Source: Chiloscyllium plagiosum
Taxonomy: Eukaryota
Reading direction: 5' to 3'
Assembly: GCF_004010195.1 (NCBI RefSeq)
Contig: NC_057754.1
Location: forward strand, 10,195,060 to 10,238,290
Length of the DNA: 43,231 bases
Below, piece after piece: positions 4,069 to 40,370 of this stretch. A program made the position numbers and the translations under genes. Positions within the stretch are counted from its first letter, which is position 1. Each line of letters begins with the position of its first letter. The notes under the pieces are model-generated. The model was not told the origin of the DNA, made no database searches, and worked only from the letters and a program-made list of their open reading frames with translations.

Positions 4069-4108
4069 GCAGACGTTTCGTCCCCTGTCTTGGTGACATC
4101 CTCAGTGC
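4069..4108 (-). ncRNA. Minimal type I hammerhead ribozyme motif (PLE family A)
   Basis: Minus strand GCA-CTGAGGA-T-GTCACCAAGACAGGGGAC-GAAAC-GTC-TGC: conserved core, stem II GTC/GAC, stem I GCA/TGC. Confidence 0.75.
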
Positions 4109-4388
4109 TTGGGAGCCTCCTGTGAAGCGCTTCTGTGATCTTTCCTCCGGCATTTATAGTGGTTTGAATCTGCCGCTTCCGGTTGTCAGTTCCAGCAGTC
4201 CGCTGCAGTGGTCGGTATATTGGGTCCAGGTCGATGTGCTTATTGATTGAATCTGTGGATGAGTGCCATGCCTCTAGGAATTCCCTGGCTGTTCTCTGTT
4301 CTCTAGGAATTCCTAGAGAAGCGGCAGATACAAATCACTATAAATGCCGGAGGAAAGATCACAGAAGCGCTTCACAGGAGGCTCCCAA

Positions 4389-4428
4389 GCACTGAGGATG
4401 TCACCTAGATAGGGGACGAAACGTCTGC
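4389..4428 (+). ncRNA. Minimal type I hammerhead ribozyme motif (PLE family A)
   Basis: GCA-CTGAGGA-T-GTC-A-CCT-AGAT-AGG-G-GAC-GAAAC-GTC-TGC; CUGANGA and GAAA boxes, GUC cleavage triplet, palindromic ACGT stem III. Confidence 0.8.
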
Positions 4429-4789
4429 AACACAAATTCCCAGCTCGACGAACAGAACCACAACAATGAGCACCCGAGCTACAAATCTTCTCACAGACTT
4501 GTATTAAATGTTGTCTACCTAACTTAAGAATCTTTCCAAGTGTCCAACAACTGACCGGCCCTTCCAGTTTCCTCGTAGAAACTATTGCCTTCAACATTTC
4601 CAAAAACTGAATAACTATTTAATAGAGGAATAGCCATTGGAGACTTCTGAACGATCTTCTTACTTTTCCTGACAGTCACCCACCTATCTGAATAATCCTG
4701 CTGGGTAATAACTTTTCCAAACCTACTAGCCATCTCATTCTGTACCTTACATATGGCCTTCTTAACAGTAGGCACAGAAAGCAAGGACA

Positions 4790-5872
4790 TGGGGAAATCT
4801 GCCTGTCTGAATACAGAATTGGCTGGCCCACAGAAAACAGAGGATGGTAGTTGACGGAAAGTATTCAGCCTGGAGCTTGGTGACTAGTGGTATTCACAGG
4901 GATCTGTTCTGGGACCTCTGCTCTTTGTGACTTTAATAAATGGCTTGGATGAGAAAGTGGAAGGCTGGGTTAGTAAGTTTGCCGATAACACGTAGGTTGG
5001 AGGAGTTGTGGATAGTGTGGAGGGCTGTTGTAGGTTGCAACGGGACATTGACAGGATGCAGAGCTGAGCTGAAAACTGGCAGTTGGAGTTCAAACTGGAA
5101 AAATATGAAGTGATTCATTTTGGAAGGTCAAATATGAATACAGATTGCAGGGTTAAAGGCAGGATTATTGGCAATATGGGGGAACAGAGGGATCTTGGGT
5201 CAATGTACATAGATCCCTCAAAGCTGCCATCCAAGATTATAGGGTTATTAAGAAAGTATATGATGTGTTGGCTTTGATTAGCAGGGGGTTTGAGTGTAAG
5301 AGCTGCAAGGTTATGCTGCAGCTCTGTAAAGCCCTGGTTACACCACACTTGGAATACTGCGTTCAGTTCTGGTCGCCTCATTATATGGAGGATGTGGAAG
5401 CTTTAGAGAGGGTGCAGAGGAGATTTACAAGATGCTGCCTGGACTGGAGGGCATGTCTTATGAAGAAAGGTTGAGGGAACTAGGACTTTTCTCATTGGAG
5501 CAAAGAAGGATGAGAGGTGACTTGATAGAGGTATACAAGATGGTGAGAAGCATAAATAGACTGTATAGCCAGATACTTTTTCCCAGGGTAGAAAAGGCTA
5601 TCACACAGGGGCATAATTTTAATGTGATTGGAGGAAGGCTTAGAGGAGATTCAAAGGTAGGTTCCTTACAGAGAGAGTGATGGTGCATGGAATACACTGC
5701 CAGCAGTGGTAATAGAGTCAGATACATCAGGGACATTTGAGCGACTCTTGGATAGGCACATGGATGATAGTAAAATGTTGGGTATGTTGGTTAGTTTGAT
5801 CTTAGAGTAGGCTAAAAGGTCGGCACATCATCGACAGTGGAAGGGCCTGTACTGTGTGCTGTACTGTTCTTT
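4790..5872 (+). mobile_element. CR1 LINE 3' portion (RT C-terminus and 3' UTR)
   Basis: [56 protein letters not shown]; frameshifted; GGGCCTGTACTGTG-type 3' end. Confidence 0.92.
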
Positions 5873-7447: not shown

Positions 7448-7613
7448 TTTGCCCGAAACGTCGATTTTGCTGCTCGTCGGATGCTGCCTAAATTGCCCGT
7501 AGTGTTAGGTAAGGGGTAAATGTCAGGATATGGTGGGTTGTGCTTCGGCAGGTCGGTGTGGACTTGTTGGGCCGAAGGTCCTGTTTCCATACTGTAAAGT
7601 AATCTAAAAAAAA
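7448..7613 (+). mobile_element. PLE family B 3'-end fragment (3' half of hammerhead) joined to the 3' half of an HE1 SINE
   Basis: TTTGCCCGAAACGTCGATTTTGCTGCTCGTCGGATGCTGCCT is followed directly by AAATTGCCCGTAGTGTTAGG...GGCCGAAGGTCCTGTTTCCATACTGTAAAGTAATCT. Confidence 0.75.
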
Positions 7614-9593: not shown

Positions 9594-9927
9594 TAGATGA
9601 GATTAGATTAGATTCCAAACAGTATGGAAACAGGCTCTTCGGACCAACAAGTCCGCATCGACCTTCCGAAGAGTAACCCACCCAGACCTATCCTATAGTT
9701 ACCCCTGACTAATGCACCTAACACGATGGGCAATTTAGTATGGTTAATTCACCTAACCTGCACATCATTTGTGATTGTGGGAGGAAACTGGAGCACCTGG
9801 AGGAAACCCACGCAGACACGGGGAGAATGTGCAAATTCCACACAGACAGTCGCCCGAGGCAGGAATCGAACCCGGGTCCCTGGCGCTGTGAGGCAGCAGT
9901 GCTAACCACTGAGCCACCATGCTGCCC
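9594..9927 (-). mobile_element. HE1-type SINE, full length
   Basis: GGGCAGCATGGTGGCTCAGTGGTTAGCAC head, GGTTCGATTCC B box, (TAATC)n tail. Confidence 0.92.
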
Positions 9928-10149
9928 TTCTGTGTCATTTGTTCAAACATAAATTAAGTAACAGGGATTCAGTTTGTTCAAATATCTCAAACAGCTTTAT
10001 TAACTGGTTAGAATACAGCTTGCAGTTCCAGGTAAAGTGTACAATCTCCAGCTCACATGTTCCTTGCTAGACTGTACACAGCAACCAGTAATATGATTCC
10101 ACCCTGGTTCTTAGCTCATTAACAACCATAGCTTTGAAGGTGTTGACAC

Positions 10150-10655: not shown

Positions 10656-10659
10656 TCAG

Positions 10660-12047: not shown

Positions 12048-12945
12048 TAGTTCTGCAAGTACAAATTCACCCCACAAACTTGTTATGTGTGCGTTTAGGG
12101 GAGACTGAGTGAGTGTGTGCATGTGGGGGTGTGAGTGCCTGTGAGAGAGTGCGTGTGTCTGTGTGTGAGCATAATGGGGTATAAGTCTGTGAGAGTGCGT
12201 GTGGGGGTGTGAGTGCCTGTGAGAGAGTGTGTGTGTCTGTGTGTGAGCATAATGGGGTATAAGTCTGTGAGAGTGCATGTGGGGGGTGTATGTGTGAGCA
12301 TATGAGAGAGAGCTGGTGTATGAGAGACGGTCTGCATGAGTTTGTGGATCTGCAGGAGGTGTGTGTGTGCGCGCACGTGTGCATGTGCGTGCAAGAAAGT
12401 GTATAGTGCAGTGGAGTCACCTGTAGTGTGACGTGAATATCCCCATGGTCCTCATCAACCGGGACCTTGGGTTCATGTCACACAACAGGTGAGTTCACTG
12501 CACTATACACTCTCACACACACACACATATACAAGTTTGTGGGGTGAATTTGTACTTGCAGAACTACATTTTATTTTGCTCAAAAATTGCATAATTCCAT
12601 GTAAATCCCACTTTAGAAATAGAATCAGTCTGGCCGAACATTGGGACGCAGACAGACTACCACACACCTTCAATGAGTTGAGATAACCACCTATTGTTTC
12701 AAGCTATCTTGAGAATGGCAACTTTTAAAAAGTTCTGGGATTTACAATATGAAGGAACAGAAACTAACATGATCATTCTAAAAGAATGTGTTTAATATTA
12801 CATTCCATGACACTGCAATCCTGTTGCTATAAAGTCTGTGTGATTCTGCTCCACAACCAATTGCTGAAGGAGCAGCGCTCTGAAAGCGAGTATTTCCAAA
12901 CAAGCCTGTTGGACTATAACCTGATATTGTGTGAATTTTAACTCT
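12048..12945. mobile_element. Penelope-like element (family C, Neptune-like) 3' end with an inverted partial copy
   Basis: Plus copy from about 12446 encodes the ORF end LINRDLGFMSH and ends in a decayed hammerhead (12862-12892). 12048-12437 is the inverted copy of 12471-12566 with an expanded CA-rich tract. Possible TSD TTTCATGAT/TTTCGTGAT. Confidence 0.8.
12105..12300. repeat. GT-rich minisatellite, unit about 78 bp, about 2.5 copies, inside a PLE 3' UTR
   Basis: GTGAGTGCCTGTGAGAGAGTG(C/T)GTGTGTCTGTGTGTGAGCATAATGGGGTATAAGTCTGTGAGAGTGC occurs at 12130 and 12208. Confidence 0.85.
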
Positions 12946-13032: not shown

Positions 13033-13352
13033 GTTGTGGTTCTGTTCGCCGAGCTGGGAATTTGTGTTGCAGACATTTCGTCCCGTCTGGGTGACATCCT
13101 CAGTGCTTGGGAGCCTCCTGTGAAGCGCTTCTGTGATCTTTCCTCCGGCATTTGCAGTGGTTTGAATCTGTCGCTTCCGGTTGTCAGTTCCAGGTGTCCT
13201 TTGCAGTGGTCGGTACATTGGGTCCAGGTCGATGTGCTTATTGATTGAATCTGTGGATGAGGGGACGAAACGTCTGCAACACAAATTCCCAGCTCGGCGA
13301 ACAGAACCACAACAACGAGCACCCGAGCTACAAATCTTCTCACAAACTTTGA
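13033..13352. mobile_element. PLE family A 3' ends in inverted arrangement
   Basis: Minus copy 13033-13260 and plus copy 13261-13352; TSD ACACAAAAT at 13024-13032 and 13353-13361; hammerhead motif near 13069-13106 (minus). Confidence 0.85.
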
Positions 13353-14789: not shown

Positions 14790-15800
14790 AAATAGTTGGG
14801 GCCTTAACTCTCCCTAACAGCGTTAGCAAAAGCATCCCCTAGGATATTAGTTCCAGTCCAGTACAGGTGTAGACCATCCAATTTGTAATGGTCCCACCTT
14901 TCCCAGAACCAATCACAATGTCCCAAAAATCTGAACCTCTCCCTCCTGCACCATCTCTCAAGCCACACATTCATCCTGCTTATTCTTTCATTCCTTCTCT
15001 GACTAGCATGTGGCACTGCTAGCAATCCTGAGATTACTACTTCTGAGGTCCTACTTGGACCTTAACTTGGCTCCTAACTCCCTATATTCTGCTGGTAGGA
15101 CCTCATCCCATTTTCTCCCCTACAACACTGGTGCCATATCACTACCACAACTGGCTGTTCACCCTCCTCCTTCAGAATGTTCTGCAGCCGTTCTGAACAC
15201 CAGTCGGGAGTGTGTTGCTGGAAAAGCACGAGAGGCTAGGCAGCATCAGAGGAGCAGAAGAATTGCCGTTTCAGGCATAAGCCCTTCATCAGGAATCCTC
15301 GATGTTGCTTGACCGGCAGTGCTTTTCCAGCAACACACTCTCGACTCTGATCTCCAGTATCTGTAGATCTCACTTTCTCCTTCTGAACAGCAGAGCCAGC
15401 CAGGGTGCCATGAATCTGGCTACTGCTGCCTTCCCCTGGTGAGCCATCTCCCCCAAACAGGTATACAGGGTGTTTTGGAGGGAGATGACCACAGGAGACA
15501 CCTGCTCTGCCTTCCTGCTCTTTCTCTACCTTTAGGTCACCCATTTCCTTTCTCCCTCAGCAATCCTGGTCTGTGGTGTGACTAATTCGCTAAAAGTGCT
15601 AACCACAACCTCCTCAGCATTGCGGATGCTCTGAAGTGAGCCCATCCGCAGCTCCAGAGCCACCACGCAGTCTAACAAGAGCTGCAGCTCGCCACACGTC
15701 CTGCATGTGAAGGAGTCAGGGACATCAGCCGTGTCCCTGAACTCCCACATTGAGCAGGAAGAGCATAACACGGGGCTGAGATCTCCTGCCATTTTTACTC
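14790..15800 (-). mobile_element. CR1 5' portion: ORF1 (zinc finger/leucine zipper plus SGNH esterase), disrupted
   Basis: MAGDLSPVLCSSCSMWEFRD..FTCRTCGELQLL; MNVWLERWCRRERFRFLGH..KLDGLHL. Confidence 0.88.
15200..15380. mobile_element. PLE family B 3' ends in inverted arrangement
   Basis: AGTCGGGAGTGTGTTGCTGGAAAAGCAC pairs with GTGCTTTTCCAGCAACACACTCTCGACT; mutated hammerhead near 15260-15296 (minus); TSD TTCTGAACA at 15191-15199 and 15381-15389. Confidence 0.8.
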
Positions 15801-17312: not shown

Positions 17313-18527
17313 TCATTGGAGTGACTTGTGAGCTCGCTGGTGTTTCAGAAGACAAGATGACCGAGTGAACTTCTTTCCACACTCAGAGCAGGTGAACGGT
17401 CGCTCCCCAGTGTGAACTCGCTTGTGTGACAGCAGGCTGGATGACTGCGTGAATCCCTTCCCACACAGGGAGCAGGTGAATGGCCTCTCCCCAGTATGAA
17501 TACGCCGATGTACAGTGAGTTCAGATGATGTCCTGAACCCAGTCCCACAATGAGAGCACATGAATGGTTTCTCATCAGTGTGAACACGTTGATGGGACAT
17601 CAGTTCCTGGGAACTTTTAAAGCACTTCCCGCACTCTGGACATTTGAACGGTCTCTCGTTAGTGTGAACCCGCTGGTGTATCAGCAGGTTGGATAACTGA
17701 GTGCATCCCTTCCCACATTCTGAACACGTAAATGGCCTCTCACCAGTGTGAATTCGCTGATGTCTCAGCAAGTTTGACAAGCGAGTGAATCCTTTCTCAC
17801 ATTCGGAGCAGGTGAACGGCCTCTCTCCCATGTGAATCTGCTTGTGTGTCAGCAGGTTGCAGGAATCAATGAATTTCTTCCCACATTCAGAGCAGATGAA
17901 TGGTCTCTCCCCTGTGTGAACTCGCTGGTGTCTCAGCAAGCTGGATAACCGAATGAAGCCCTTCCTACACTTGGAGCAGGTGAACGGCCTCTCTCCGGTG
18001 TGAATTCGCAGATGTAAAGTGAGTTCAGACGATGATCTGAACCCAGTCCCACAGTGAGAACACTCGAATGGTTTCTCGTCAGTGTGAATACGTTGATGGT
18101 ACATCAGTTCCTGGGAACTTTTAAAGCACTTCCCACACTCTGGGCATTTGAATGGTCTCTCGTCAGTGTGAACCCGCTGGTGTATCAGCAGGTTGGATAA
18201 CTGAGTGCATCCCTTCCCACATTTGGAACACACAAATGGTTTCTCGCCTGTGTGAGCTCGCCGGTGTCTCAGCAGGTTGGATAACTGAGTGAATCCCTTC
18301 CCACACTCGGAACAGGTGAACGGTCTTTCCCCAGTGTGGCTACGCTGATGGATTTTCAGGGCAGATGAGTGATTGAATCCTTTCCCACAGTCACCACATT
18401 TCCACAGTTTCTCTCCAGTGTTAGTGCATTTGTGTCTTGACAGGCCAGATGATTGGCTGAAGTGTCGTCCACAGGCAGTACACGTGAATGGTTTCTCTCC
18501 ACTGTGAATGTAGCTTTCTCCTTTCAT
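17313..18527 (-). CDS. Poly-C2H2 zinc-finger protein, 14 tandem fingers (first lacks the second His), about 404 aa, single coding exon visible
   Basis: Uninterrupted ORF of CxxC-x12-HxxxH units joined by TGE(R/K)PF linkers. First ATG is at 18527 ([14 protein letters not shown]); the ORF-track start at 18533 is TTG. Splice acceptor about 110 nt upstream. Confidence 0.93.
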
Positions 18528-18636
18528 GTTCAAAGGCTGTTGAGTTTCAGACTACATTAAATGGAGCAACTCTGTCAGATTCTGATGTGATGCTTGGTTT
18601 CAGTTTCCCAACTGCAAATCCTCCTCTTTAATACTT

Positions 18637-19740: not shown

Positions 19741-20711
19741 CCCAGGACAGAAAAGTTAACATGAGAGCAAGATGTCCCATTAAGTAACAACACCTAATTT
19801 TTCATTTCAGCATTTTAGAGCCTTGAAGTCGAAATATTGAATCTAATGACTTCCATCACTTTGCCACTGATGGACAGTAGATGACTAGAGCAAGGTCTTG
19901 TAGGTGAGAAGGTCTATAGCCTTAAAACTTGTCTTTAAGCATTTAGACTAACATGTAATGCTGAATTATAGAACGCATTTACTGCACTAGAAAATAGACA
20001 GGCAGGAAGGCTCAAAAAAAAGCTTAAAGATTGCAAAAGATAGAGACACCTGGGCTTACCAAGTGATAACAGAATGCTGTAAGGCAATTCAGAACATTTG
20101 CCTTAGCATCGGTGAATCTGTGTGAACAGGACACCATATCATAACATCCACAGCCATTCCCTTGCGAAATTAATGACAGTGTTTGATTCTGACCCGAAAA
20201 CGAAATTAGGTCCTATCAAAAACTTTGTGATTACAAGTCAGATGTTGCCAATTATTGTATAATGGATTCTTATTACCCCCTTGCAAGCAGGGCAGACACA
20301 GAGAGAAAAAATACTTTGCTGTTACAAAACCCTGACTTGAGTGTTCAAAAGGACACTAAAGAGAGAGAGACAATTTTAGTGCTGAGGCTGTTGAAGCCAG
20401 GAGAAAATTAACTCTTAGTGCTTATCGATGATGGATTGAATTTAATTGCATTTTGGAACTTTGATGATATTGAATAGCCATTATCAGTTATTAAATACAA
20501 ACTCTGTAAAAGGTAATATTGATGAAGCCCTAACTTACGTGCAGACCACTCTACAGACCTTACAGACTGCCCCATTGTCAATTCTATCTAGTCAGATCTT
20601 ACGTCTTATTCGAATTTGAATCACAAACTTGAAAAGAAGGCATGTTTAATTCGAGCTGAAAATGTGTTGCTGGAACAGCGCAGCAGGTCAGGCAGCATCC
20701 AGGGAACAGGG

Positions 20712-20748
20712 GAATCGACGTTTCGGGCATAAGCCCTTCTTCAGGAAT
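20712..20748 (-). ncRNA. Minimal type I hammerhead ribozyme motif (PLE family B), intact core
   Basis: Minus strand ATTC-CTGAAGA-A-GGGC-TTAT-GCCC-GAAAC-GTC-GATTC. Confidence 0.8.
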
Positions 20749-20939
20749 GAGGAAATTGTGTCCAGCAGGCTAAGACAAAAGGTAGGGAGGAGGGACTTGG
20801 GGGAGGGGCGTTGGAAATGCAATAGGTGGAAAGAGGTCAAGGTGAGGGTGATAGGTCAGACTGGGGTGGGGGCGGAGAGGTCAGGAAGAAGATTGCAGGT
20901 TAGGAAGGTGGTGCTGAATTCGATGGATTTGACTGAGAC

Positions 20940-21778
20940 NNNNNNNNNNNNNNNNNNNNNNNNNNNNNNNNNNNNNNNNNNNNNNNNNNNNNNNNNNNNN
21001 NNNNNNNNNNNNNNNNNNNNNNNNNNNNNNNNNNNNNNNNNNNNNNNNNNNNNNNNNNNNNNNNNNNNNNNNNNNNNNNNNNNNNNNNNNNNNNNNNNNN
21101 NNNNNNNNNNNNNNNNNNNNNNNNNNNNNNNNNNNNNNNNNNNNNNNNNNNNNNNNNNNNNNNNNNNNNNNNNNNNNNNNNNNNNNNNNNNNNNNNNNNN
21201 NNNNNNNNNNNNNNNNNNNNNNNNNNNNNNNNNNNNNNNNNNNNNNNNNNNNNNNNNNNNNNNNNNNNNNNNNNNNNNNNNNNNNNNNNNNNNNNNNNNN
21301 NNNNNNNNNNNNNNNNNNNNNNNNNNNNNNNNNNNNNNNNNNNNNNNNNNNNNNNNNNNNNNNNNNNNNNNNNNNNNNNNNNNNNNNNNNNNNNNNNNNN
21401 NNNNNNNNNNNNNNNNNNNNNNNNNNNNNNNNNNNNNNNNNNNNNNNNNNNNNNNNNNNNNNNNNNNNNNNNNNNNNNNNNNNNNNNNNNNNNNNNNNNN
21501 NNNNNNNNNNNNNNNNNNNNNNNNNNNNNNNNNNNNNNNNNNNNNNNNNNNNNNNNNNNNNNNNNNNNNNNNNNNNNNNNNNNNNNNNNNNNNNNNNNNN
21601 NNNNNNNNNNNNNNNNNNNNNNNNNNNNNNNNNNNNNNNNNNNNNNNNNNNNNNNNNNNNNNNNNNNNNNNNNNNNNNNNNNNNNNNNNNNNNNNNNNNN
21701 NNNNNNNNNNNNNNNNNNNNNNNNNNNNNNNNNNNNNNNNNNNNNNNNNNNNNNNNNNNNNNNNNNNNNNNNNNNNNN
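20940..21778. other. Assembly gap (839 N)
   Basis: Run of n characters. Confidence 1.
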
Positions 21779-23029
21779 GGAGGAAAAGGTGGGGGTTGGG
21801 GCCAGTGTAGTTGCGGAAGATGGATTGTTCCACATATCCTACGAAGAGGCTGGCATAGCTGGGGCCCATGCGGGTGCCCATGGCTACTCCTTTCGTTTGG
21901 AGGAAGTGGGAGGATTGGAAAGAAAAGTTGTTCAGGGTGAGGACCAGTTCAGTCAGTCGAAGGAGGGTGTCAGTGGAAGGGTACTGGTTGGTACGGCGGG
22001 AAAGGAAGAAGCGGAGGGCTTTGAGTCCCACGCATTCTCTCCCCCCCCACGCATGTTTAATTCGAGACTAATTAATCATTTTAAATACAACCTTGCAGTA
22101 ACATTTCAGCCTCAGGTACAGAATGATATTGTGCTTAAGATAAAAAGCAGGAGTCTGCTCCCAGCTTAAAATTACTCTAAACCTACCATTGAAGAGATTC
22201 TGACACAATCTGGTGGGAAGCCATTTTATGGCCAAACGTTTGCCCTCCTTGATAAGAAGCCATTTCGCAAAACAATTGTATCAGACATGCAAGCTGTGCA
22301 AGGTTACTTTATGAACTTTCCAATTAGCTCAGACTGATAGGAGTTTATCTCACTAGTAAGCTGGGTATGTTTGTCCCACCTGATGGAAAGCTCAAGGCCT
22401 GTAGGAGTGATCAGTCAAGCACACACAGATCTGTCAATTAACTTTTCTGCCTTACAAATTATTGTCTTTCACTGTTATCTGTCTAATTAAGAACATGCAA
22501 TGTTTTTGTAAACTTTTGTATAAAGGAAGCCACTTTGTAGTGGATTCATTGGAGTAGCCTGATGGGGCACTTGAAGAGCTGGTACTCTACTCTCCTCACC
22601 TAGCTAGTTTAGCTTATAGGTATCAGTGTTATGTTGTAACAGTGATGCTATTAATGAATAAAGGGGATGATTAAAATTAAACTAAACTGTAAGAGGTTTT
22701 TATTCCAGACTTCCAAAGAGTACGATCTCCGGGATGAACCAAGAGAGAGAGGCTTACAGGTCTGAGTCCACAAGGGATTGCCTGGGCTGTCTCAATTCTG
22801 TACTACCTCTAATTCTACTTCTGGACCAGAAGTGCAAATCCCTCATGCCCCAGAGGTGTGTCATAAGGCATCCAAACAGGTTGATTAAAAATAACATGGA
22901 CCAACAGGTTGGTAATTGGCCAGATTGAATTTCTCCCACTTTATGTGGACTGGACAAACCTCAGCAACTTTTTTTCTTGGCTGGTTAGATTCCTGTATTC
23001 ATGATAAGAATTGTCGTTGTTCTGGAACA

Positions 23030-24269: not shown

Positions 24270-24850
24270 CTATCCTGGATGTGGTGAGTAACAGAGAGAA
24301 AAAAAATTCCCTCATGTCAGATGTAAACAGACTGATGGAGTCATGTGAGGTTTTTCCCATTTAGGGAACACTCAAACCCTTTCTCACCTTAACCATCGAC
24401 TATCAAATCATTGGAATTTTTAAACTGGAGGATTGACAGGGGCAAAAGCTGAACAGATCTTTTTGCACAGGTAACATATCTGAACAATCTCCCTCGGTGT
24501 TATGATTAGCCATTATTAGACTGGGATGGGCAAAGTTAAAAATCACACTACACGAGGTTACAGTCCAACAGGTTTATTTGGAAGTACTCTCTTTCGGAGC
24601 GCTGATCCTTCATCAGGTAGTGGGGCAGGATCATAAGACACAGAATTTATAGCTCAAGATGTTGTGCTCCTACCCCTCTGACTACCTGACAAAGGAGCAG
24701 CGCTGCAAAAGCTAGTACTTGCAAATAAACATGTTGGACTATAAGCTTGTGTTTGTGTGATCTTTAACTTTGTCTCTCAGTGTGACAGTGCAATCCTGTC
24801 AGTAAGTGGGATGACTGAGTGAATCGATTTACACATTCTCTGGGTAACAG
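24270..24850 (-). pseudogene. Very decayed zinc-finger remnant split by a PLE insertion
   Basis: Minus strand GATTCACTCAGTCATCCCACTTACTGACA (FTQSSHLLT) near 24796-24825; TCCTGGATGTGGTGAGTAACAG near 24273 resembles the ZNF 3' motif. Confidence 0.45.
24531..24773. mobile_element. PLE family C 3' ends in inverted arrangement (two hammerhead motifs)
   Basis: CAAAGTTAAAAATCACAC..AGTCCAACAGGTTTATTTGGAAGTACT..TTTCGGAGCGCTGATCCTTCATCAGGTAG pairs with CTACCTGACAAAGGAGCAGCGCTGCAAAAGCTAGTACTTGCAAATAAACATGTTGGACT..GTGTGATCTTTAACTTTG. Confidence 0.85.
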
Positions 24851-25929: not shown

Positions 25930-26249
25930 GGGCGGCACGGTGGCACAGTGGTTAGCACTGCTGCCTCACAGCGCCAGAGACCCGGGTTCAATTCCCGACT
26001 CAGGCGACTGACTGTGTGGAGTTTGCACATTCTCCCCGTGTCTGCGTGGGTTTTCTCCGGGTGCTCCGGTTTCCTCCCACAGTCACAAAGATGTGCGGGT
26101 CAGGTGAATTGGCCATGCTAAATTGCCCGTAGTGTTAGGTTAAAAGGGTAAGTGTAGGGGTATGGATGGGTTGCGCTTCGGCGGGTCGGTGTGGACTTGT
26201 TGGGCCGAAGGGCCTGTTTCCACACTGTAAGTAATCTAATCTAATCTAA
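25930..26249 (+). mobile_element. HE1-type SINE, full length, young (CpGs intact)
   Basis: GGGCGGCACGGTGGCACAGTGGTTAGCACTGCTGCCTCACAGCGCCAGAGACCCGGGTTCAATTCCC ... GGGCCGAAGGGCCTGTTTCCACACTGTAAGTAATCTAATCTAATCTAA. Confidence 0.95.
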
Positions 26250-26866
26250 GAATTCTACAGGTTCACAACTCTCTGAGTGAAGAAATTCTTCCTCATCTCA
26301 GTCCTGAATGGCTTACCCCTTATTCTAAGACTGTGACCCCCTATTTCTGGACTTCCCCAATGTTGGAAACATTCTTCTCACACTCGGCCTATCCAGTCCC
26401 ATCAGGATTTTATATGTTTCTATGAGATCCCCCCCCCCCCCACCTCAATTCTTCTAAATTCCAGCGAATACAAGCCTAGCCGATCCAGCCTTTCTTCGTA
26501 TGTCAGTCCTGCCATCCTGGGAATCGGTCTTGCGAACCTTTACTGAACTCCCTCAATAGCAAGAATGTCCTTCCTCAGACTAGGAGACCAAAACTGTACA
26601 CAATACTCAATGTGTGGTCCCACCAAGGCCCTGTATAACTGCAGCAAGACATCCCGACTCCTGTACTCAAATCCTCTCACTGTGAAGGCCAGCTTTCCTT
26701 ACTGCCTGCTGTATCTGCATGCCAATCTGTTCCACCACTGCACCTCACTAACACAGGTCCCACAGAAAAGTCCATGAGATCCATGGTAACTTGGCAAGTT
26801 GGATTCAAAATTAATTTGGTGGTAGGGTACAGAGGATAGTGGTAGAAGCCTGTTTGTGTGACTGGA

Positions 26867-26951
26867 TGAAGGGCTTTTGTCTGAAAAGTCCATTTTCCTG
26901 CTCCTCGGACGCTGCCTGACCTGCTGTGCTTTTCCCGCACCACACTAATCT
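26867..26951 (+). mobile_element. 85-bp PLE family B tail insertion
   Basis: TGAAGGGCTTTTGTCTGAAAAGTCCATTTTCCTGCTCCTCGGACGCTGCCTGACCTGCTGTGCTTTTCC; TSD TGACTGGA at 26859-26866 and 26952-26959. Confidence 0.8.
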
Positions 26952-29067: not shown

Positions 29068-29645
29068 TAGGGTTTAGAAAGGATTTACAAGGATGTTGCC
29101 AGGGTTGGAGGCTTTGAGCTATAGGGAGAGGTTGAATAGGCTGGAGCTGTTTTCCCTGGAGTGTCGGAGGCTGAGGGGTGACCTTATAGAGATTTATGAA
29201 ATCATGAGGGGCATGGCTAGGGTAAATTCCTGGGGTGGGGGAGTTCAGAACTAGAGGACATACGTTGAGGGTGAGAAAGGAAAGATATAAAAAGGACCTA
29301 AAGGGCAACTTTTTAATGCCGAAGGTGGTGTTTCTATGGAGTCGAGAGTGTGGTGCTGGAAAAGCACAGCAGGTCAGGCAGCATCCGAGGAACAGGAGAA
29401 TCGACATTTCGGGTAAAAGCCCTTCATCAGGAATGTGTTTGGAAATGAGCTGCCAGACGAAGTGGTGGAGGCTGGTACAATTGCAACCTTTAAAAGGCAT
29501 CTGGATGGACGTATGAATAGGAAAGGTTGAGAGGGATATGGGCCAAATGCTGGCAAATGGGACTAGATTAGGTTAGGATATCTGGTCGGCATGGACAAGT
29601 TGGACCGAAGGGTCTGTTTCCTTGCTGTACATCTCAATGACTCTG
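29068..29645 (+). mobile_element. CR1/HER1 3' end
   Basis: LPGLEALSYRERLNRLELFSLECRRLRGDLIEIYEIMRG; 3' UTR ends TTGGACCGAAGGGTCTGTTTCC. Confidence 0.9.
29340..29436 (-). mobile_element. PLE family B tail with hammerhead motif, inserted in CR1
   Basis: Minus strand ATTCCTGATGAAGGGCTTTTACCCGAAATGTCGATTCTCCTGTTCCTCGGATGCTGCCTGACCTGCTGTGCTTTTCCAGCACCACACTCTCGACTC. Confidence 0.82.
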
Positions 29646-30204: not shown

Positions 30205-30540
30205 TCACCGACTCAACCTTTCCTCATCAGACAATATGTCCATTCCAACCGTTAGTTGAATATTCTCTGAACTGCTTCCAATAGATTTCCTTAAATAAAG
30301 ATACCAATACTTCCAGTATTCCAGATGCCCTTTACAGCTGAAGCATAATCTCTTCAATTTTGTATTTAATTTCCTTTGTAATAAACAATAGCATTCTTTG
30401 AACTTTCCTAAACATTTGTTGTACCTGTATATCAACTTTTTGCAATTTATGCAGGACACCCAGATCTTTCAGGATATGTTTCTCAACCCTATTCTTCTGC
30501 CTTCTCCCCATAACCCCCTCATTGATCAAGAACCTATTGC
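30205..30540 (-). mobile_element. Degraded CR1 fragments
   Basis: DLGVLHKLQKVDIQVQQ..MLLFITKEIKYKIEEIMLQL; GHLEYW; SDEERLSR. Confidence 0.75.
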
Positions 30541-30542
30541 TT

Positions 30543-31203
30543 TGGGGAAAATCACCAGCCTCGGAGTCAGAGTCGGGGTTCAATGACAGAGTTTATTGTA
30601 CAAGGAAATATCGGAGCTCTAGCGAGAGAAAGACACCAACAGTACAGTGGTCAGCTATGAGTCTTCTCTCAACCCAGAGCACATGTCAAGATACTTTTAT
30701 ACATTTTGTAATAATAGGTCAGTGATGAGGTTATTTGTAACATGGTTTGTTTATGGTAATCATTGCAGAATCGTTAATAGTTTTGGTGCAGTCATTGTCA
30801 GTTCCAGTGCAGCCTTTGTTAATTCAGCACATTCGTTGTCAGTTTCAGAACAGACATTGTCAGATTACTGCAGCCCTAACTATTAGGATTTCGTATTGAG
30901 TCTATATCAAGCTGTCAGCATTTCAGTCAAAGGTGTTGGCTGGACCCGGACTCCCTAGCAGGCAGTGTACGCTACTCGTGTACTCTCTCCCCCACACGCC
31001 TTAAACTAATCAACTAAGTTGTGAGTGCATTGTACTGGCATTCTGGTGGCCCCAGGCAGTGTCTGTATTCGCTCTGCTGTCTTTCTCCATATTGTGGTAC
31101 GTCAGCCATCTTGTGTGTCAAGTGGCCAACTGATGGCTCAGCGGCCATCTTGTGTGTCCATGTGCCTAGTGTCACTCTGCCCTGTGCCATCTCGCACTTC
31201 ACA
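30543..31203 (-). mobile_element. 3' LTR of an endogenous retrovirus (about 660 bp)
   Basis: Starts TG immediately after the polypurine tract AAAGGGGGG (31212-31204); TATAAAA at 30701-30695; AATAAA at 30597-30592; ends TTTTCCCCA. Confidence 0.75.
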
Positions 31204-31299
31204 CCCCCCTTTGTGATCAAGGAGGTGACTTCGGAGATCTCCCGCAGACCACCCAATTCACATGTAGAGGTAGGTCATCTCTGGGAGCTCCTCCTCCCG

Positions 31300-32030
31300 A
31301 GGTGTATCATGGAGTGCCAATTTCATTGGGGGCTGTTCCGTGGTGACACTCGCTGCTGGTACAGTTCTGGTCAGTAGCAACTTACAGCAGAGCTTTAAAC
31401 ACCAAGGCCCACACAGAATACCAGCGTGAGGAGAACTATCCCATGTGCTAAATAGGGTCCCTAAGATTTACCTAGCAACCAATTTTGCCAGCTGTCTGTA
31501 ATTGTGGCTCCCTGTCGAAAACTATCTAGCTGGTCTCGGATATTCTTGATGGCTTCTGTAAGGCTAAAAGAGGCATCAATAACATGGGTGATATAATGTC
31601 ACCAATAGTTGTACAAACTCCCCCATGCTGTGCTAATTGATAATCCACCACGTAATGTGTCTGCTATGTGTCGAGTCTGAGTTCAGCCAGCTCTGTATTA
31701 ATTTTTTTCCAGGGCTTTTGAGGTATTATTGCCTAAGATAGTCAGGCCAGATACAAGATACAAGATCATTTTGATTTTTAGCGCTGACAACCCCTACTGT
31801 GCCCCCCAAAGATAAAGAATCCATATCCCAATGATGACCCCAAAGTGGTGGGGACCTGCTGGTCAGCACGGAACTCCTGACTGATGGAGCGGGTCACTAT
31901 CTTTCTCTGAATATATATCCCCCACTGGGGCATGGTACAGTAAGGGATTACCCCTACTGAAAACAGGTTTGGGAGGTCTGGGGTGTCTGTGGCATAAGTC
32001 CCCCTAAACAGAAAAACAAATCCCTTTGCC
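31300..32030 (-). pseudogene. env: ERV env remnant (TM subunit; SU mostly deleted)
   Basis: RKIVTR|SI cleavage-like site (about 31906-31889), fusion-peptide-like LGYGFFIFGGTVGVV, heptad NTELAELRL, immunosuppressive-domain-like QTHYVVDYQLAQHGGVCTTIG, WQNWLL and hydrophobic anchor GIVLLTLVFCVGLGV; stops and frameshifts. Confidence 0.82.
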
Positions 32031-32159
32031 GTCGGTAACGTACATTGTCCTGTCCTTCCATCTGTCTATCCACCCGTATCGCCCCTGATCCCCCGGGCAC
32101 TCCCTCCCCGTCCCTGTCTGCACCTGGGGAATGGTCAATGACATTAGTTTGGTCACAGG

Positions 32160-33045
32160 AGTCTTTAAACGGTGTTAGTTGGGTCCAGTGCTTCCATGTG
32201 CCTTTCCCTTTAATAACCCCACTTATTACCACATCATATGGCCTATTCCATTTTGGGGCAAAGCCTGGTCTGTCAGGCAATGCTCACACTTGGACACGGC
32301 TTCCTGATGCAAGGACCTCAGGGAAGATTTCGACTTCCCCTGCTTTGTCCTTTTTGTCCTTCTGGGAGGTGATAGGAAATGCGATTTTTTTTGTTTAATG
32401 CCGAGTAATTGACAGACAGTCTTAATTTCGTTCCCTGTGAAATGTGTCCCTTCTTCAGTGTCGATCTGGAGGGCTCCCCCACCTCGGTATTACCTCCTCT
32501 ACCAATATTCTGGCTACAGTGGATGTGGTGCAGCTTTTGGGTAGGAATGCTTCCAGCCACCAGGTAAATTGGTCTATGATGACCAGGCAGGATGTTTTCC
32601 CACGGGAGGGTGGTAGTAGCCCTGTAAGATCTATTTGAAGGTGTCTCCAGGGTCCCCTAGGTTTGGACTGGTGTCCCATCCTAACTTTTATGAGTCTCCC
32701 TGGATTATGTTGTGCACAAACCATGCATCTGTGGCAGTACTTGGCCACATCTCCTCCCACTCCCTTCCACCACCACTCTCTCCCTCGGCTTCCTATAATG
32801 GCCTCTCCACCTGTATGGGAGAGCCCATAGTGCAGTTCAAGCAATGTGTTCTGTATACGTGCTGGTGCCAACACCTTGTCTGCTCATCTCCAGACACCAT
32901 CCTCCCCTTTGACTGCTGCCTGCAGTCTCCATTGCTCTCTCTCTTCCTGCAGGGTATCCTCCTGTAGCTGCAGAATTTGGATAATGTCTTTTGCTATTTC
33001 AACAGTGGCTATTGCAGCCTCGTCAATGGCGACTTTTCCTAGGGC
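32160..33045 (-). pseudogene. pol: ERV pol remnant: end of RNase H and integrase (class I, gamma/epsilon-like)
   Basis: HYGLSHTG..WWW..CHRCMVCAQHN (HHCC), PWRHLQIDLT..LVIIDQFTWWLEAF..VIPRWGSP (first D), frameshifted IDTEEGTHF, and C-terminal FAPKWNRPYDV; part of the core is deleted. Confidence 0.9.
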
Positions 33046-33049
33046 TTTC

Positions 33050-33295
33050 TGAGCTGAAGGATGTTGTAGGTTACAGAGAGACATAGATAAGCTGCAGAGC
33101 TGGGCTGAGAGGTGGCAAATGGAGTTTAATGCGGACAAGTGTGAGGTGATTCACTTTGGTCAGAGTAACTGGAATGCAAAGTACTGAGCTAATGGTAAGA
33201 TTCTTGGTCGTGTAGATGAGCAGAGAGATCACGGGGTCCAGGTACACAGATCCTGGAAAGTTGCCACCCAGGTTGACAGGGTTATTAAGAAGGAT
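33050..33295 (+). mobile_element. CR1 RT fragment truncating the ERV
   Basis: GCCRLQRDIDKLQSWAERWQMEFNADKCEVIHFG. Confidence 0.9.
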
Positions 33296-33299
33296 AGCT

Positions 33300-33710
33300 G
33301 GTCACACCAACTAGCCACGAAATGACATGACCAGCTATCCTTCGTAGCCACACACTCAGATGACAAGCAACATGAGTTCGACTGGGACAACACTACTATT
33401 ATAGGACAAGCCAAACAGAGAACAGCCAGGGAATGCCTAGAGCCATGGCACTAATCCACAGGATCAATCAATAAGCACATTGACCTGGACCCAATATACC
33501 GGCCACTGCAGGAACTGACAACCAGAAGCGGCAGATACAAATCACTATAAATGCTGGAGGAAACATCACAGAAGCGCTTCACAGGAGGCTCCCAAGCACT
33601 GAGGATGTCACCCAGACGGGACAAAACGTCTGCGACACAAATTCCCAGCTCGGTAAATAGAACCACAACAACGAGCACCCGAGCTACAAATCTTCTCCCA
33701 AACTTTGAAC
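33300..33710 (+). mobile_element. PLE family A 3' end (GIY-YIG C-terminus, UTR, mutated hammerhead)
   Basis: HQLATK*HDQLSFVATHSDDKQHEFDWDNTTIIGQAKQRTARECLEPWH*STGSINKHIDLDPIYRPLQ; GCACTGAGGATGTC..GACAAAACGTCTGC near 33596-33633. Confidence 0.87.
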
Positions 33711-34255
33711 CTAGGGTTTATGTCACGCTACATGTAACCCTACACTATTCTGTATCTGTAAAATCTTTCTTACCCCGTCCTGTTTTGACACCATCTTGAT
33801 AACTTATGATCTATTTACTTTTGTTAGTTTGTACAGTTTTGGATTATTTATTACTTTGGTTACACCCTCGGCATGCAACTCGTGTAACTGTCATGTCATT
33901 GGTTTGTCTCCAGCACCACCTTATTCTGAATTTTTTTGTAATTATCTTTCTGCCTCAACTAATCGGATAATAGTCACCTTGCTATTGATGTTGACACTTT
34001 GCTCACACCATCTGACGCTTTTGATCACCTGCAGAGACTTATTATTCAACCTGTCGACCTCCACTCACACCATTTGTGTGGTCTTTTGATCTTACTGCAT
34101 ATAAATTCTGTGCCTGTGCGTTTCTCTTCACTTCACCTGACAAAGGAGCAGCACTCCAAAAGTTTGTGACTTCAAATAAACCTGTTGAACTATAACCTGG
34201 TGCTGTGTGATGACTGATCTTATCCACCTCAGTCCAACACCAACACCTCCACATC
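33711..34255 (+). mobile_element. PLE family C-related 3' end
   Basis: Begins with the ORF end LGFMSRYM*; ends CACCTGACAAAGGAGCAGCACTCCAAAAG..AAATAAACCTGTTGAACTATAACCTGGTG..CAGTCCAACACCAACACCTCCACATC. Confidence 0.78.
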
Positions 34256-34356
34256 TCTGATCATGAATACTTGACGCTCTTCCAAATAAGTTTCTAAATT
34301 TGCAAAATTATTCAGGGATCATAACTTCCCTTACATTCTCAAAACATTTCTCTCAG

Positions 34357-35348: not shown

Positions 35349-35688
35349 GGGTGGCTCAGTGGTTAGCACTGCTGCCTCACAGCACCAGGGATCCAGGTTC
35401 AATTCCAACCTCAAGGCGACTGCGTGTATGGAGTTTGCACATTCTCCCAGCATCTGTATGGGTTTGCTCCAGTATTCTCCCATTGTCAAAAGATGCGCAG
35501 ATTTGGTGGATTGGCCATGCTAAATTGCCCATAGTGTCCAGGGACGTGCATGTTAGTGGGTTAGCCTTGGGAAATACAGTGTTACAAGGATAGGGTAGAA
35601 GGGTGGGTCCAGGCGAGATGCTGTTTAGAGGATCGGTGTGGACTCAATGGACCAAATGACCTGCTTCCACACTGTAGAGACTCTGTGA
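35349..35688 (+). mobile_element. Older HE1-type SINE
   Basis: GGTGGCTCAGTGGTTAGCACTGCTGCCTCACAGCACCAGGGATCCAGGTTCAATTCC head; TGGCCATGCTAAATTGCCC core; LINE-like tail. Confidence 0.85.
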
Positions 35689-37760: not shown

Positions 37761-37789
37761 TAGGTTAATACAGAAGACAAAAATCACAT

Positions 37790-38765
37790 GAGTGAGGGCT
37801 AATTTCTGAACTTGGATTGGAGGATTGAATAACCAATAAGATAGTTCAGATAAATGGGTCCTTTCTGGTTGGCAGTCAGTGGGGTGCCACAGGGTACAGT
37901 CCTTGGGCCCCAGCTATTTACAATCCTCATTAATGCCTTCGATACAGGATAAAATGTATTACAGCTAAGTTTGCAGATGACACTCTAATAGATGGAAAAA
38001 TTCATTGCAATGATGAAATAAGAAATTTAAGAAATGGATATGGATACATTATGTGAGTGGGCCAAATTTTGGCAGATGAAATTTAACATGGGTTGGTGTG
38101 AGGTTATTAATTTTGGTCAGAGGAATAGAAAAGCAATTTATTATCTACCGTAAGTGGAGAGAACTATCAGAGTTCTTCGGAGCAGAGGGATCTGGGTGTC
38201 CTCATGTATTAATCGCAGAAAACTAGTATTAGGTCTCACAGTTTATAAAGGAAGACAAATGGAATTTGGCAGTTATTGCTATTGGAATACAGTATAAAAG
38301 TAGGGATGTGTTGCTGTAACTGCACAAGGCATTTGTTTGACCACATCTGAAGTAACATGCATAATTTCAGTCCCTTTACTTGAGAATGGACGTAGTTGTA
38401 TTGGAAGCCTCGTCAGTGGAGGTTCACTAGATTCATTCCAGAGTTGAGGGGTTAGTTACGATCAGAGATTGAGTATGAATAGAGATTCAGCAGTTTAAGC
38501 CGATACTCTCTGGAGTTTAGAAGAGTGAGAGAAGATCTAACTGAGGGATATAAGATGCTAAGGGGATTGACAAAGTTGACTTAGAAAAGATGTTTCCTTC
38601 TGGGGCAATTGCGAATGAGGGGTCATAACTTTTGGGTGTAGGTTAACAGATTTAAAACAGGTAAGGAAAAATTACTTATCCCCAAGGGTTGTGAATTGGT
38701 GGATTCACTATTCCAGAGTATGATGGATGCTGGGTCATTGAGTAGGTTTAAGGAGTCACTTGAGG
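37790..38765 (+). mobile_element. Old CR1 RT-to-3' fragment
   Basis: GVPQGTVLGPQLFTILIN, AKFADDT, YSLEFRRVREDLTEGYKML. Confidence 0.85.
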
Positions 38766-39539
38766 TAGTTTACAGAAGGTAAGTAAGGCAAAGCTCTCAG
38801 AATTAACAGTCAAGCTGCAGTTGAGGTTGCGTGTGCCTGAGAAAAAGGGAGGTAAGTGCAGCAGGAGCTCAGCATTTACAATTACCAGGAATACAGTCAG
38901 AATCATTGGAAATAACTAAAATCTAATTGCAAATGGAGAAAAAAGCATAGTCCTGGTAACAAAAAGCAAAAGAGAGGCAAAAGCAAAAGACAAGGATATG
39001 GATCGAGGTTTTGAACTTCAAATTAAACAACATCTTCCACTGACCCAATCAATCAAAATCTCTGTAGTCTTAGATAACCTTCTTCACTGTCCACTATCCC
39101 AGCAATTTTGGTGTCATTCACAAACTTATTAATCACACCTTCTGTATTCGCATTTAAAATCATTTTTATAAATGACAAGCAAAAATGAACAAAGTGATGG
39201 ATGACCATCTCACTCAGCTCCTGCTTTTGCCTCAGCCAGGCTGTTCCAATGCATTATACAACTGAGGTTGGTACAATAAATTGAACAAAAAAACAACCAG
39301 CTATGTCATGTCCACAAAAGTAAGACAAATCTAATCCTACGAATTAATTCTGTTCTCCATTCTCAGCAAAATGATGGAATTGGGCAACATTTCTATCAGA
39401 CAGTATTGACTCAGCAATAACCAGCTCACTGATCCACCAGGGCCACCATTGCAGATTGTTGGGGTACACTCATGTCCTTTTGGGAAAGAAACTGCCACCC
39501 TTACCCAGACTGACTTACACATGTAATTGCATGCATTTT

Positions 39540-40370
39540 ATCCTTTGCTATTTCCGCCACCTACAATCAGATCCCACCACCAGAGATGTATTTCCCTCCC
39601 CAGTCCAAAATGTGTTCCGCAGAGACCATTCCCTCCATGACTCCCTCGTTAGATCCATGCCTCTCCCACCAACCCATCCTCCACTCCTGGCACCTTCCTT
39701 TGGCACCGCAAGAGGTGTAAAACCTGCGCCCACACCTCCCCCCCCACCTCCATTCAAGGCCCCAAAGGATCCTTCCACATCTGGTAGAGATTGTCCTGCA
39801 TGTCCAAACACCTCATCTACTCTGTCCATTGCTCTTGATGTGGTCTTCTCTACATAGGTGAGACAGGATGCCAACTTGCGGGACATTTCAGAGAACATCT
39901 TTGGGACACACACATCAATCAACGCCGCTGCCCAGTGACCGAACACTTCAACTCCCCCTCCCACTCTGCCAAGGACATGCAAGTCCTCCATCGCCAAATT
40001 TTAGCCACCCGATGCTGGGAGGAACACTTCATCTTTCACCTTGGGACCCTCCAATCTCACAGGATCAACGTGGATTTCACCAGCTTCCTCATTTCCCCTC
40101 CCCCCACCTTATCGCAGATCCAACCTTCCAACTCGGCACCGCCCTCTTGAACTGTCCTACCTGTCCATCTTCCTCCCCACCTATCTGCTCCACCCAACCT
40201 CATCCACCTATCGCATTCCCAGCCACATTTCTCCCAGCCCCAGCCTCACCGCGCCTCATTTATCTCTCAGCCCCCCTTGGGCCACCCCTACATTCCTGCT
40301 AAGAGCTTATGCTCCTCTCCTGCTCCTCAGATGGTGCCTGACTGGCTGTTCTTTTCCAGCACATTTTTTG
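39540..40370 (+). mobile_element. PLE family B (Neptune-like) 3' half: linker Cys motif, GIY-YIG endonuclease, UTR
   Basis: FRHLQSDPTTRDVFPSP..FRRDHSLHDSLVRS, KRCKTCAH, LIYSVHCS*CGLLYIGETG..FREHL, VTEHFNSPSHS, FHLGTLQSHRINVDF; decayed hammerhead/tail at 40292-40362. Confidence 0.9.

What the first reader, a model, noticed from the sequence alone, without database searches (positions are those of the whole stretch)
4069..40362. About 15 minimal hammerhead-ribozyme motifs from three Penelope-like families in 43 kb
Seen: three sequence families share CTGANGA-N-stem II-GAAA followed by a tiny palindromic stem III. Family A is GCACTGAGGATGTC..GACGAAACGTCTGC (4069-, 4389+, 13069-, 13261+ half, 33596+). 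Family B is TTCCTGA(T/A)GAAGGGCTT(A/T)TGCCCGAAACGTCGA (7448+ half, 15260-, 20712-, 26862+, 29398-, 40292+). Family C is CCTGATGAAGGAGCAGCGCTCCGAAAGCTA (12862+, 24580-, 24684+, 34136+). Each family is tied to a recognisable PLE ORF end in this window. Known: PLEs carry minimal type I hammerheads whose palindromic stem III is thought to favour dimeric cleavage. Inference: this genome carries a very high load of ribozyme-tipped retroelement tails, and the cores at 4069, 4389 and 20712 look intact.
Basis: partly seen in the sequence, partly recalled or inferred. Interest (0 to 1): 0.7.

Follow-up and report, generated by a model that had tools for sequence, protein, structure and literature searches.

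The report
Shark Penelope retroelement hammerhead fossils
These are real but mostly broken copies of a small RNA motif already known from the ends of Penelope-type jumping genes; this shark-like genome holds over 100,000 copies with an intact-looking core, and many short ones start just before the motif, likely because they were copied from RNA it had not cut.

Summary
All 15 sites are real ends of three Penelope-like element (PLE) families: A is Poseidon-type, B and C Neptune-type. Only 3 of 15 keep an intact minimal-hammerhead core (4105-, 4392+, 20744-), none from C. They come from at most 12 insertions, as three pairs are inverted arms. Paired bases covary between families and among A subfamilies. 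The class is known (Cervera and de la Pena 2014). The window's density is ordinary here. Exact patterns count at least 103,567 intact-looking cores genome-wide, controls 0, against about 4,000 (coelacanth) and 9,000 (Xenopus) in print. Two extras. (1) Short B and C copies begin 3-10 nt before the core, 30 nt after a TATA-like box, and not at the cut site, so templates were likely uncut, promoter-started RNA. (2) In A the whole 2,503-nt unit is coding, with start and stop codons overlapping inside the ribozyme. Cleavage itself is untested. The scan noted both extras before, in this and other shark genomes.

The parts
4029..4501 (.). One family A (Poseidon-type) insertion: inverted arm without tail (4029-4300, minus) and direct arm with tail (4318-4501, plus); duplication TATTAAA at 4022 and 4502
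4069..4108 (-). Intact minimal hammerhead A (C3 at 4105, C17 at 4072); the loop II stop codon is changed to AAG in this copy
4389..4428 (+). Intact minimal hammerhead A (C3 4392; predicted cut after 4425); holds the ORF start ATG (4398-4400) and the stop TAG of the upstream ORF (4406-4408)
13033..13352 (.). One family A insertion: minus arm with C15.2>T and a 2-nt loop deletion (C3 13103), plus arm starting inside stem II (13260); duplication ACACAAAAT at 13024 and 13353
33304..33710 (+). Family A 3' end with GIY-YIG C-terminus; hammerhead at 33596 has G12>A
7448..7492 (+). Family B half-motif (3' half only), running into SINE-like sequence
15200..15380 (.). Short two-armed family B insertion; the minus arm begins at 15296, 4 nt before C3 (the predicted transcription start); core has U16.1>G; duplication TTCTGAACA
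20656..22050 (-). Family B (Neptune-type) insertion with RT remnant and an assembly gap (20940-21778); duplication of 16 nt at 20640 and 22051; lies upstream of a splice acceptor of a C2H2 zinc-finger gene on the same strand, likely in its intron
20713..20748 (-). Intact minimal hammerhead B (C3 20744; predicted cut after 20717); initiator-like A at 20748
26862..26944 (+). Decayed family B end (5' core broken)
29341..29435 (-). Short family B copy beginning about 5 nt before C3; stem II mismatch and C15.2>T
39510..40362 (+). Old family B 3' end with zinc-finger linker and GIY-YIG remnant; the motif at 40296 has lost GAAACGUC
12048..12943 (.). Family C (second Neptune-type family) insertion; ORF end LNRDLGFMSHNR* at 12492; decayed motif at 12861
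24508..24774 (.). Head-to-head family C pair (C3 24616 minus, 24687 plus), both decayed; likely one insertion
   Evidence: no duplication found
34096..34256 (+). Short family C copy, G8>A and G12>A

Best explanation
The 15 sites are mostly decayed ends of at most 12 insertions from three Penelope-like retrotransposon families, each carrying a minimal hammerhead motif that likely sits at the very start of the element's transcript and was likely left uncut in the RNA that got copied into DNA. Steps. (1, inferred) A promoter in the pseudo-LTR starts transcription about 4 nt (B) or 8 nt (C) before the core; read-through gives a second copy of the motif at the RNA's 3' end. (2, shown by copy ends here and in vitro for the anole element) Reverse transcription starts inside the RNA at two sites about 35-40 nt apart, downstream of the motif; both DNA ends of the target can be primed, which gives inverted arms, one with and one without the 'tail'. 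(3, inferred) Priming on the 3' copy runs through the motif into the ORF end; priming on the 5' copy runs off the transcript start after roughly 100-140 nt and gives the abundant mini-copies. (4, inferred from the published class) One motif alone cannot fold, because stem III has no loop. It would cut only as a dimer or with the element's protein. A cut would remove the 5' leader, and in family A the start codon, so it would act as an off-switch or a late processing step, not as a requirement for insertion. (5, shown) Inserted copies then decay, fastest at CpGs in the core.
For: Anatomy matches the published minimal hammerhead. Covariation between families: stem I pair 1 is A-U (A), C-G (B, C); pair 2 is C-G, U-A, A-U; stem III is ACGU (A, B) or AGCU (C); 2 copies have the U3-A8 swap (these rows were chosen by the descriptor). 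Among 12 random-sample A copies not filtered for pairing plus 2 window copies, stem I pair 3 is paired in 14 of 14 rows as G-C 7, U-A 5, C-G 2; 87% of cells pair, 0 of 500 shuffles reach that, and slid controls give 26-47%. Linked proteins are PLE-type: RT motif YVDD and GIY-YIG in A without the CX2-5CXXC linker; linker present in B and C. 5' breakpoints in 763 kb of random sample, anchored downstream of the cut site: B 28 of 69 at risk end at -10..-1 (0.041/nt) against 10 of 115 around the cut site (0.015/nt, like neighbouring bins) and 4 of 38 at -60..-21; C 19 of 35 against 0 of 45. B peaks at -4/-3 on the A of an initiator-like TCATTCC, 30 nt after a TTTATCT box (42 of 53 box matches at one spacing); C peaks at -9..-7, about 30 nt after TATAAA (15 of 24 at one spacing). 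Whole-genome exact counts of one B core fall 30,936 > 23,715 (to -3) > 9,537 (to -7) > 6,289 (to -11), steepest across -3..-7. In raw RNA reads of one public run, B-type reads pass into mixed flanks at 20748 (71 reads) and 20747 (27). A 3' ends cluster at +68-70 and +105-110 from the ATG. The anole element uses unprocessed RNA in vitro.
Against: No cleavage, transcription start or promoter activity was measured. Family A shows no clear pile-up at its predicted start (2 of 82 at -25..-16, in loci biased to long copies). About half of the pile-up copies are arms of inverted pairs and so not independent; non-inverted copies still give 18 of 86 (B) and 9 of 23 (C) at -10..+5. B bins from +20 to +45 are inflated by divergent subfamilies that lack a reference. 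The whole-genome drop between -3 and -7 could partly reflect subfamilies with another upstream sequence. Within B and C, core columns are no more conserved among copies than flanks, so selection is visible only between lineages. Related sequences can beat the shuffle control without structure, and two of its five measures were not above the shuffles.
Confidence: 0.7

Rival explanations
1. Cut-and-circularise: paired motifs in the two pseudo-LTRs cut out a unit-length RNA that is ligated into a circle, and the circle is the template (Cervera and de la Pena 2014). In family A the circle would also be the messenger, since only re-joining restores the start codon to the ORF.
For: Same-strand motif pairs about 2.5 kb apart exist (2,488 nt without gaps in L171). 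The A unit is 2,503 nt and its ORF 2,514 nt, so a circle would encode exactly one protein. Copies that run from ORF end through the motif into ORF start need a template continuous across the cut site.
Against: A linear transcript with both terminal repeats supplies the same junction. A circle has no end at -4/-8, where many B and C copies stop. No excess of ends at the cut site. Core mutants did not change insertion by the anole protein in vitro, and no RNA-seq ends mapped to its cut site.
Confidence: 0.15
2. The pile-up just upstream of the core marks a block to reverse transcription or a template switch caused by the folded or protein-bound motif and its palindromic stem II, not a transcript start; the motif is then mainly a structural signal.
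For: Many breakpoints lie at 0..+19 and are inverted junctions with stem II microhomology. 62 of 178 sampled copies are arms of mini-palindromes under 260 nt.
Against: Peaks differ by family (-4 against -8) in step with a promoter-like box 30 nt upstream; non-inverted copies show them too. A structural block should stop the enzyme before it has copied the whole motif.
Confidence: 0.2
3. The motifs are no longer catalytic in these lineages, or ride along as parasites of the element; their shape persists for promoter, coding or protein-binding reasons.
For: Monomers do not fold into the active shape. The active dimer is far above the predicted minimum energy for all three types. B stem I has a U-U mismatch in 56 of 95 copies. 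Naiad PLEs thrive without the motif.
Against: The catalytic core is kept across three unrelated families, with compensated stems and a U3-A8 swap. The anole motif cleaves with protein and is rescued by a double mutant. Nearest-neighbour energies omit core tertiary contacts.
Confidence: 0.1
4. Some copies act on host RNA, for example the intact B copy at 20744 cutting the zinc-finger pre-mRNA in which it likely lies.
For: Sense orientation, 2.1 kb upstream of an acceptor supported by two RNA contigs. In the random sample 38 of 178 copies have a same-strand family neighbour within 3.5 kb.
Against: This copy has no same-strand intact partner in the window. It is identical to 30,936 others, so its intactness reflects youth. 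B-type reads come from both strands about equally (273 against 227).
Confidence: 0.05

Closest known systems
Minimal hammerheads (min-HHR) in pseudo-LTRs of metazoan PLEs, including fish Xena, Poseidon and Neptune (Cervera and de la Pena 2014, PMC4209133)
   Same: No loop III, palindromic 15.2/16.2, extra base between positions 9 and 10.1, G10.1-C11.1, short stem I, U3-A8 variant, dispersed single copies, and opposite-strand pairs 100-700 bp apart.
   Different: The paper's main text names no cartilaginous fish (its supplement was not read). It reports about 4,000 motifs in coelacanth and 9,000 in Xenopus; here at least 103,567 by exact patterns, with a different method. Stems are shorter here (stem I 2-4 bp, stem II 4-6 bp).
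PAc, Poseidon element of Anolis carolinensis (Frangieh et al. 2024, PMC11167929)
   Same: Start codon at the start of stem II with the cut site 26 nt (PAc) or 28 nt (family A) downstream; two reverse-transcription starts that define the tail; both strands primed; uncut RNA as template.
   Different: In family A the upstream ORF also ends inside the ribozyme, so the unit has no non-coding part. The passages read do not say this of PAc; its GenBank supplement could not be read.
Inverted and partial-tandem PLE insertion structure with 30-40 bp tail (Craig et al. 2021, PMC8557442)
   Same: 5'-truncated copies, inverted arm, tail at one end only; linker motif separates Neptune from Penelope/Poseidon; transcription start inside the pseudo-LTR.
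   Different: The passages read do not place the start within 10 nt of the ribozyme or describe a truncation peak there.
Non-LTR retrozymes (Li et al., bioRxiv 10.64898/2026.07.22.740005)
   Same: Type I hammerheads related to PLE pseudo-LTRs; reported in one chondrichthyan.
   Different: Retrozymes are tandem arrays with two or more complete motifs; the window has none.

Membership tests
Minimal type I hammerhead (min-HHR) | Core C3UGANGA9 ... G12AA A15.1 ... U16.1 H17 | tested here: met
   3 of 15 window sites; majority form of all three families
Minimal type I hammerhead (min-HHR) | Self-complementary 15.2/16.2 with no loop III | tested here: met
   ACGU in A and B, AGCU in C
Minimal type I hammerhead (min-HHR) | Extra base between 9 and 10.1; G10.1-C11.1 pair | tested here: met
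   U in A, A in B and C; G-C is the commonest pair
Minimal type I hammerhead (min-HHR) | Compensatory changes in stems I and II | tested here: met
   Between families and among A subfamilies; almost none within B or C
Minimal type I hammerhead (min-HHR) | Self-cleavage after N17 as a dimer or with protein | not testable with these tools
   RNA lays showed no end pile-ups, but the one raw library is poly(A) single-cell and cannot show such ends
Rfam hammerhead families | Covariance-model match | tested here: not met
   No hammerhead hit up to E 10; expected without stem III
EN+ Penelope-like element | Single ORF with RT and C-terminal GIY-YIG endonuclease bearing two cysteines in the core | tested here: met
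   A: 837-aa majority ORF with YVDD and PCKDCTKHYIG; B and C: C-terminal parts only. Pfam gave only a sub-threshold RVT_1 hit; relatives carry GIY-YIG PF01541
EN+ Penelope-like element | Pseudo-LTRs, inverted truncated arm, 30-40 bp tail at one end | tested here: met
Penelope/Poseidon clade (A) and Neptune clade (B, C) | CX2-5CXXC linker absent (Poseidon) or present (Neptune, Nematis) | tested here: met
   Absent in A; CNRRRCKTC in B; CHGRRCETC-like in C
Penelope/Poseidon clade (A) and Neptune clade (B, C) | Placement in an RT phylogeny | not tested
   No reference set was fetched; Nematis is not excluded for B and C
Non-LTR retrozyme | Tandem repeat with two or more complete motifs on one strand | tested here: not met
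   No such array in the window

The most novel reading that the evidence does not exclude
In the Poseidon-type family A the hammerhead is a 40-nt switch that holds both the start and the stop codon of a gene filling the entire 2,503-nt repeat. Cutting strips the start codon from the linear RNA, and re-joining makes a circle that encodes exactly one full-length 837-residue protein: a retrotransposon whose messenger can be a ribozyme-made circle.
Probability: 0.12. Interest if true: 0.75.

Novelty: new member of a known kind. Interest (0 to 1): 0.35.

Why it matters
The motif and its host elements are known, and 12 of the 15 copies are broken. The value lies in scale and in what the fossils record. 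At least 103,567 intact-pattern cores (about 180,000 by sampling, inside about 800,000 motif-bearing ends) is over ten times the published vertebrate counts, though methods differ. What PLE hammerheads do is still open. The copy ends argue that insertion used uncut, promoter-started RNA and not ribozyme-cut or circular RNA, and they give exact positions to test by cap mapping. The start/stop overlap in family A gives a concrete translational-switch hypothesis.

Tried and rejected
Rfam scan: no hammerhead, four chance-level hits. Loose pattern count: barely above chance. Monomer folding: z-scores -1.0 to +1.3 and no active fold; homodimer minima are also inactive shapes, so energy gives no support. 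'Window unusually rich': rejected. '15 independent ribozymes': rejected. Searches were faulty (anchoring offsets; inverted copies among the references; a wrong family C pattern) and are replaced. The majority sequence carried gap letters or a 1-nt frameshift; the spacing test resolved it (16 of 18 copies have the extra base). Transcription-start pile-up in family A: not seen. Sequencing runs: no RNA holder listed on record. Lays listed no places where many molecules begin or end, and run X23 gave no reads; these are no test of cleavage. The 5:1 strand bias on L171 may come from oligo-dT priming on the A-rich strand. Three near-full A copies checked all have early stops. No tRNA genes. Five literature searches listed no paper on shark PLE hammerheads, on a stop codon inside the motif or on a truncation peak at the start site; the library lacks most subscription papers and Repbase.
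Full report
Setting. The window is G000:C45:10195060-10238290 of a 3.56-Gb genome. The closest named proteins to its PLE ORFs come from Chiloscyllium punctatum, Rhincodon and Stegostoma, so it is likely a carpet shark. It holds two C2H2 zinc-finger exons among LINE, SINE and retrovirus-like remains.

Observation. DNA profiles built from 36-40 genome copies per family hit all 15 sites; a reversed control gave none. A strict minimal-hammerhead descriptor keeps only C3 at 4105-, 4392+ and 20744-, against 1 hit in 60 shuffles. The other 12 are halves or carry core changes. In 95 sampled B copies the weakest core columns are CpGs: C11.1-G12 is intact in 53, C15.2-G16.2 in 53 and C17-G1.1 in 61, while non-CpG core bases are 90-99% conserved, like the flanks. 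This is neutral decay after insertion. Target-site duplications join 4105-/4392+ (7 nt) and 13103-/13260+ (9 nt) and bracket the B insertions at 15292 (9 nt) and 20744 (16 nt). Shared words of 5-7 nt at six other sites are too short to trust, and none was found for the C pair. At most 12 insertions remain.

Is it a hammerhead? The anatomy is that of the min-HHR of Cervera and de la Pena (PMC4209133; parts 1-3 of 4 read, supplement not read). Among 196 descriptor-passing copies in the loci then held (overlapping fetches not removed), stems swap between families: stem I is GCA/UGC in A, UC/GA in B and CAC/GUG in C; stem III is ACGU or AGCU; two copies have U3-A8. To avoid circularity I aligned 12 of the 17 unfiltered A hits of the random sample (left out: one without a locatable core, one near-duplicate, two lacking the 5' half, one with a core deletion) plus two window copies. 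Stem I pair 3 is paired in 14 of 14 rows in three pair types; 87% of cells pair; 0 of 500 shuffles match that, though two of the five measures did not exceed shuffles. Rfam has no matching model. Folding shows no active monomer, as expected without loop III. Cleavage is untested.

Which elements? Family A is Poseidon-type: RT plus GIY-YIG, no linker zinc finger. B and C carry the CX2-5CXXC linker and are about 27-39% identical to each other in the pieces compared, so they are two Neptune-type families (definitions from passages of PMC8557442). No tree was built.

Load. In 80 evenly chosen 10-kb stretches (763,119 non-N bases) 178 of 195 profile hits span the 3' core: one per 4.3 kb, or about 790,000 genome-wide; 40 pass the descriptor, about 178,000 (23 with stem I of 3 bp or more, 5 with 4 or more). 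Clustering makes the Poisson limits too narrow. Four random stretches reach 13-14 hits with probability 0.12-0.17, so the window is ordinary. Whole-genome exact patterns give 82,543 (B), 17,609 (C) and 3,415 (one A 40-mer), with backward controls 0. The published counts are about 4,000 and 9,000 by another method.

Family A anatomy. In copies with a 5' motif, the ATG formed by A9, the extra U and G10.1 opens a long frame (MSPRQGTKRLQHKF..., open for 150 codons in 4 of the 8 copies translated). The GIY-YIG frame runs without a stop to a TAG in loop II (L091). Modal spacing over tiled anchors gives a 2,503-nt unit and a 2,514-nt ORF of 837 codons plus stop, overlapping by 11 nt. In alignment A2 the ATG is present in 12 of 14 rows and a stop at the loop position in 10 of 14; for old subfamilies I did not show that this stop closes the ORF, and two of the ATG bases are fixed by the ribozyme anyway. 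The start codon in the motif is known for the anole element PAc (PMC11167929; parts 1-2 of 4 and three near-empty supplements read). 3' ends cluster at +68-70 and +105-110 from the ATG, matching its two reverse-transcription starts and tail. In B and C the ORF ends about 100-370 nt before the motif.

Where copies begin. With a model of the sequence downstream of the cut site, so that cut-site ends are not missed, 142 of 159 B hits and 51 of 52 C hits were placed. Break rates per base were 0.041 (B) and 0.054 (C) at -10..-1 from C3, 0.015 and 0 around the cut site, and 0.003-0.004 at -60..-21. Nine B ends lie within 2 nt of the cut site, several of them divergent subfamilies and not true ends. 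B peaks at -4/-3 (15 copies) on an initiator-like A, 30 nt after TTTATCT; C peaks at -9..-7, about 30 nt after TATAAA (promoter spacing rules are from my own knowledge). Whole-genome counts drop most steeply between -3 and -7 (40% kept, against 77% before and at least 66% after). Reads of one public RNA run leave the element into mixed flanks at 20748 and 20747; these are genomic junctions inside host transcripts, not RNA ends. Window examples are the arms starting at 15296 and 29435. Family A shows no such peak in biased loci. 101 of 178 sampled copies have a divergent inverted partner within 3.5 kb, 62 within 260 nt.

Mechanism. Every copy with a whole motif needed a template continuous across C17. 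The peak at a promoter-defined position favours linear, uncut, promoter-started RNA over circles. This agrees with PAc, whose ribozyme needs protein and whose insertion does not need cleavage. The motif is then likely a conditional cutter acting late or as an off-switch. In the window no intact same-strand pair exists, so these copies are likely inert.

Literature and earlier notes. Also seen: part 1 of 5 and passages of bioRxiv 10.64898/2026.07.22.740005 (its supplements are closed), and passages of PMC13725137 on ribozymes aiding translation in RNA viruses. Searches listed nothing on shark PLE hammerheads. Earlier scan notes report the codon overlap, the start-site reading and the back-to-back insertions in this and other shark genomes. 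My notes predate that look-up; the agreement is not independent evidence.

Verdict. Real, correctly named, a new member of a known kind; mostly dead copies; interest 0.35 for the scale and the testable mechanistic clues.

Noticed in passing
window 17313-18636 and 41033-42100, minus strand: Two long C2H2 zinc-finger exons (13 and 11 Pfam finger stretches). The first has a splice acceptor at 18637-18638 supported by two RNA contigs; a GT donor near 23956 and a CpG-rich stretch at 23700-24100 suggest its first exon and promoter.
   Followed up: partly
window about 30500-33050, minus strand: Decayed retrovirus-like or LTR-element fragment with integrase zinc-binding and core matches (32455-32880) and an env-like stretch; described only.
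   Followed up: partly
L120, L123, L125, L127, L128, L131, L208, L211, L214 and others: Mini-palindromes under 260 nt made of two PLE arms joined at the motif (62 of 178 sampled copies); they could be mistaken for MITEs.
   Followed up: partly
L206:4141-4187 (-), L128:7008-7054 (+): A further B-like family with the U3-A8 core swap and a longer stem II, not present in the window.
   Followed up: partly
L129:2197-2639 (-): Two intact B motifs on the same strand 334 nt apart: a natural tandem suited to a dimer cleavage test.
   Followed up: no
P0001, P0010, P0014, P0123: Database gene models in sharks and rays (MAP3K7, a divergent kinase, a chitinase-domain protein, nicotinamide riboside kinase isoforms) include PLE ORF sequence: exonisation or misannotation.
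   Followed up: no
window 1141-1450, 9600-9930, 25930-26250, 35350-35680: Copies of a SINE-like repeat, resembling the shark HE1 family (name recalled, not tested).
   Followed up: no
L173-L190: Most near-full-length family A copies contain assembly gaps, as does the B insertion at window 20940-21778, so full-length PLEs are under-represented in this assembly.
   Followed up: partly
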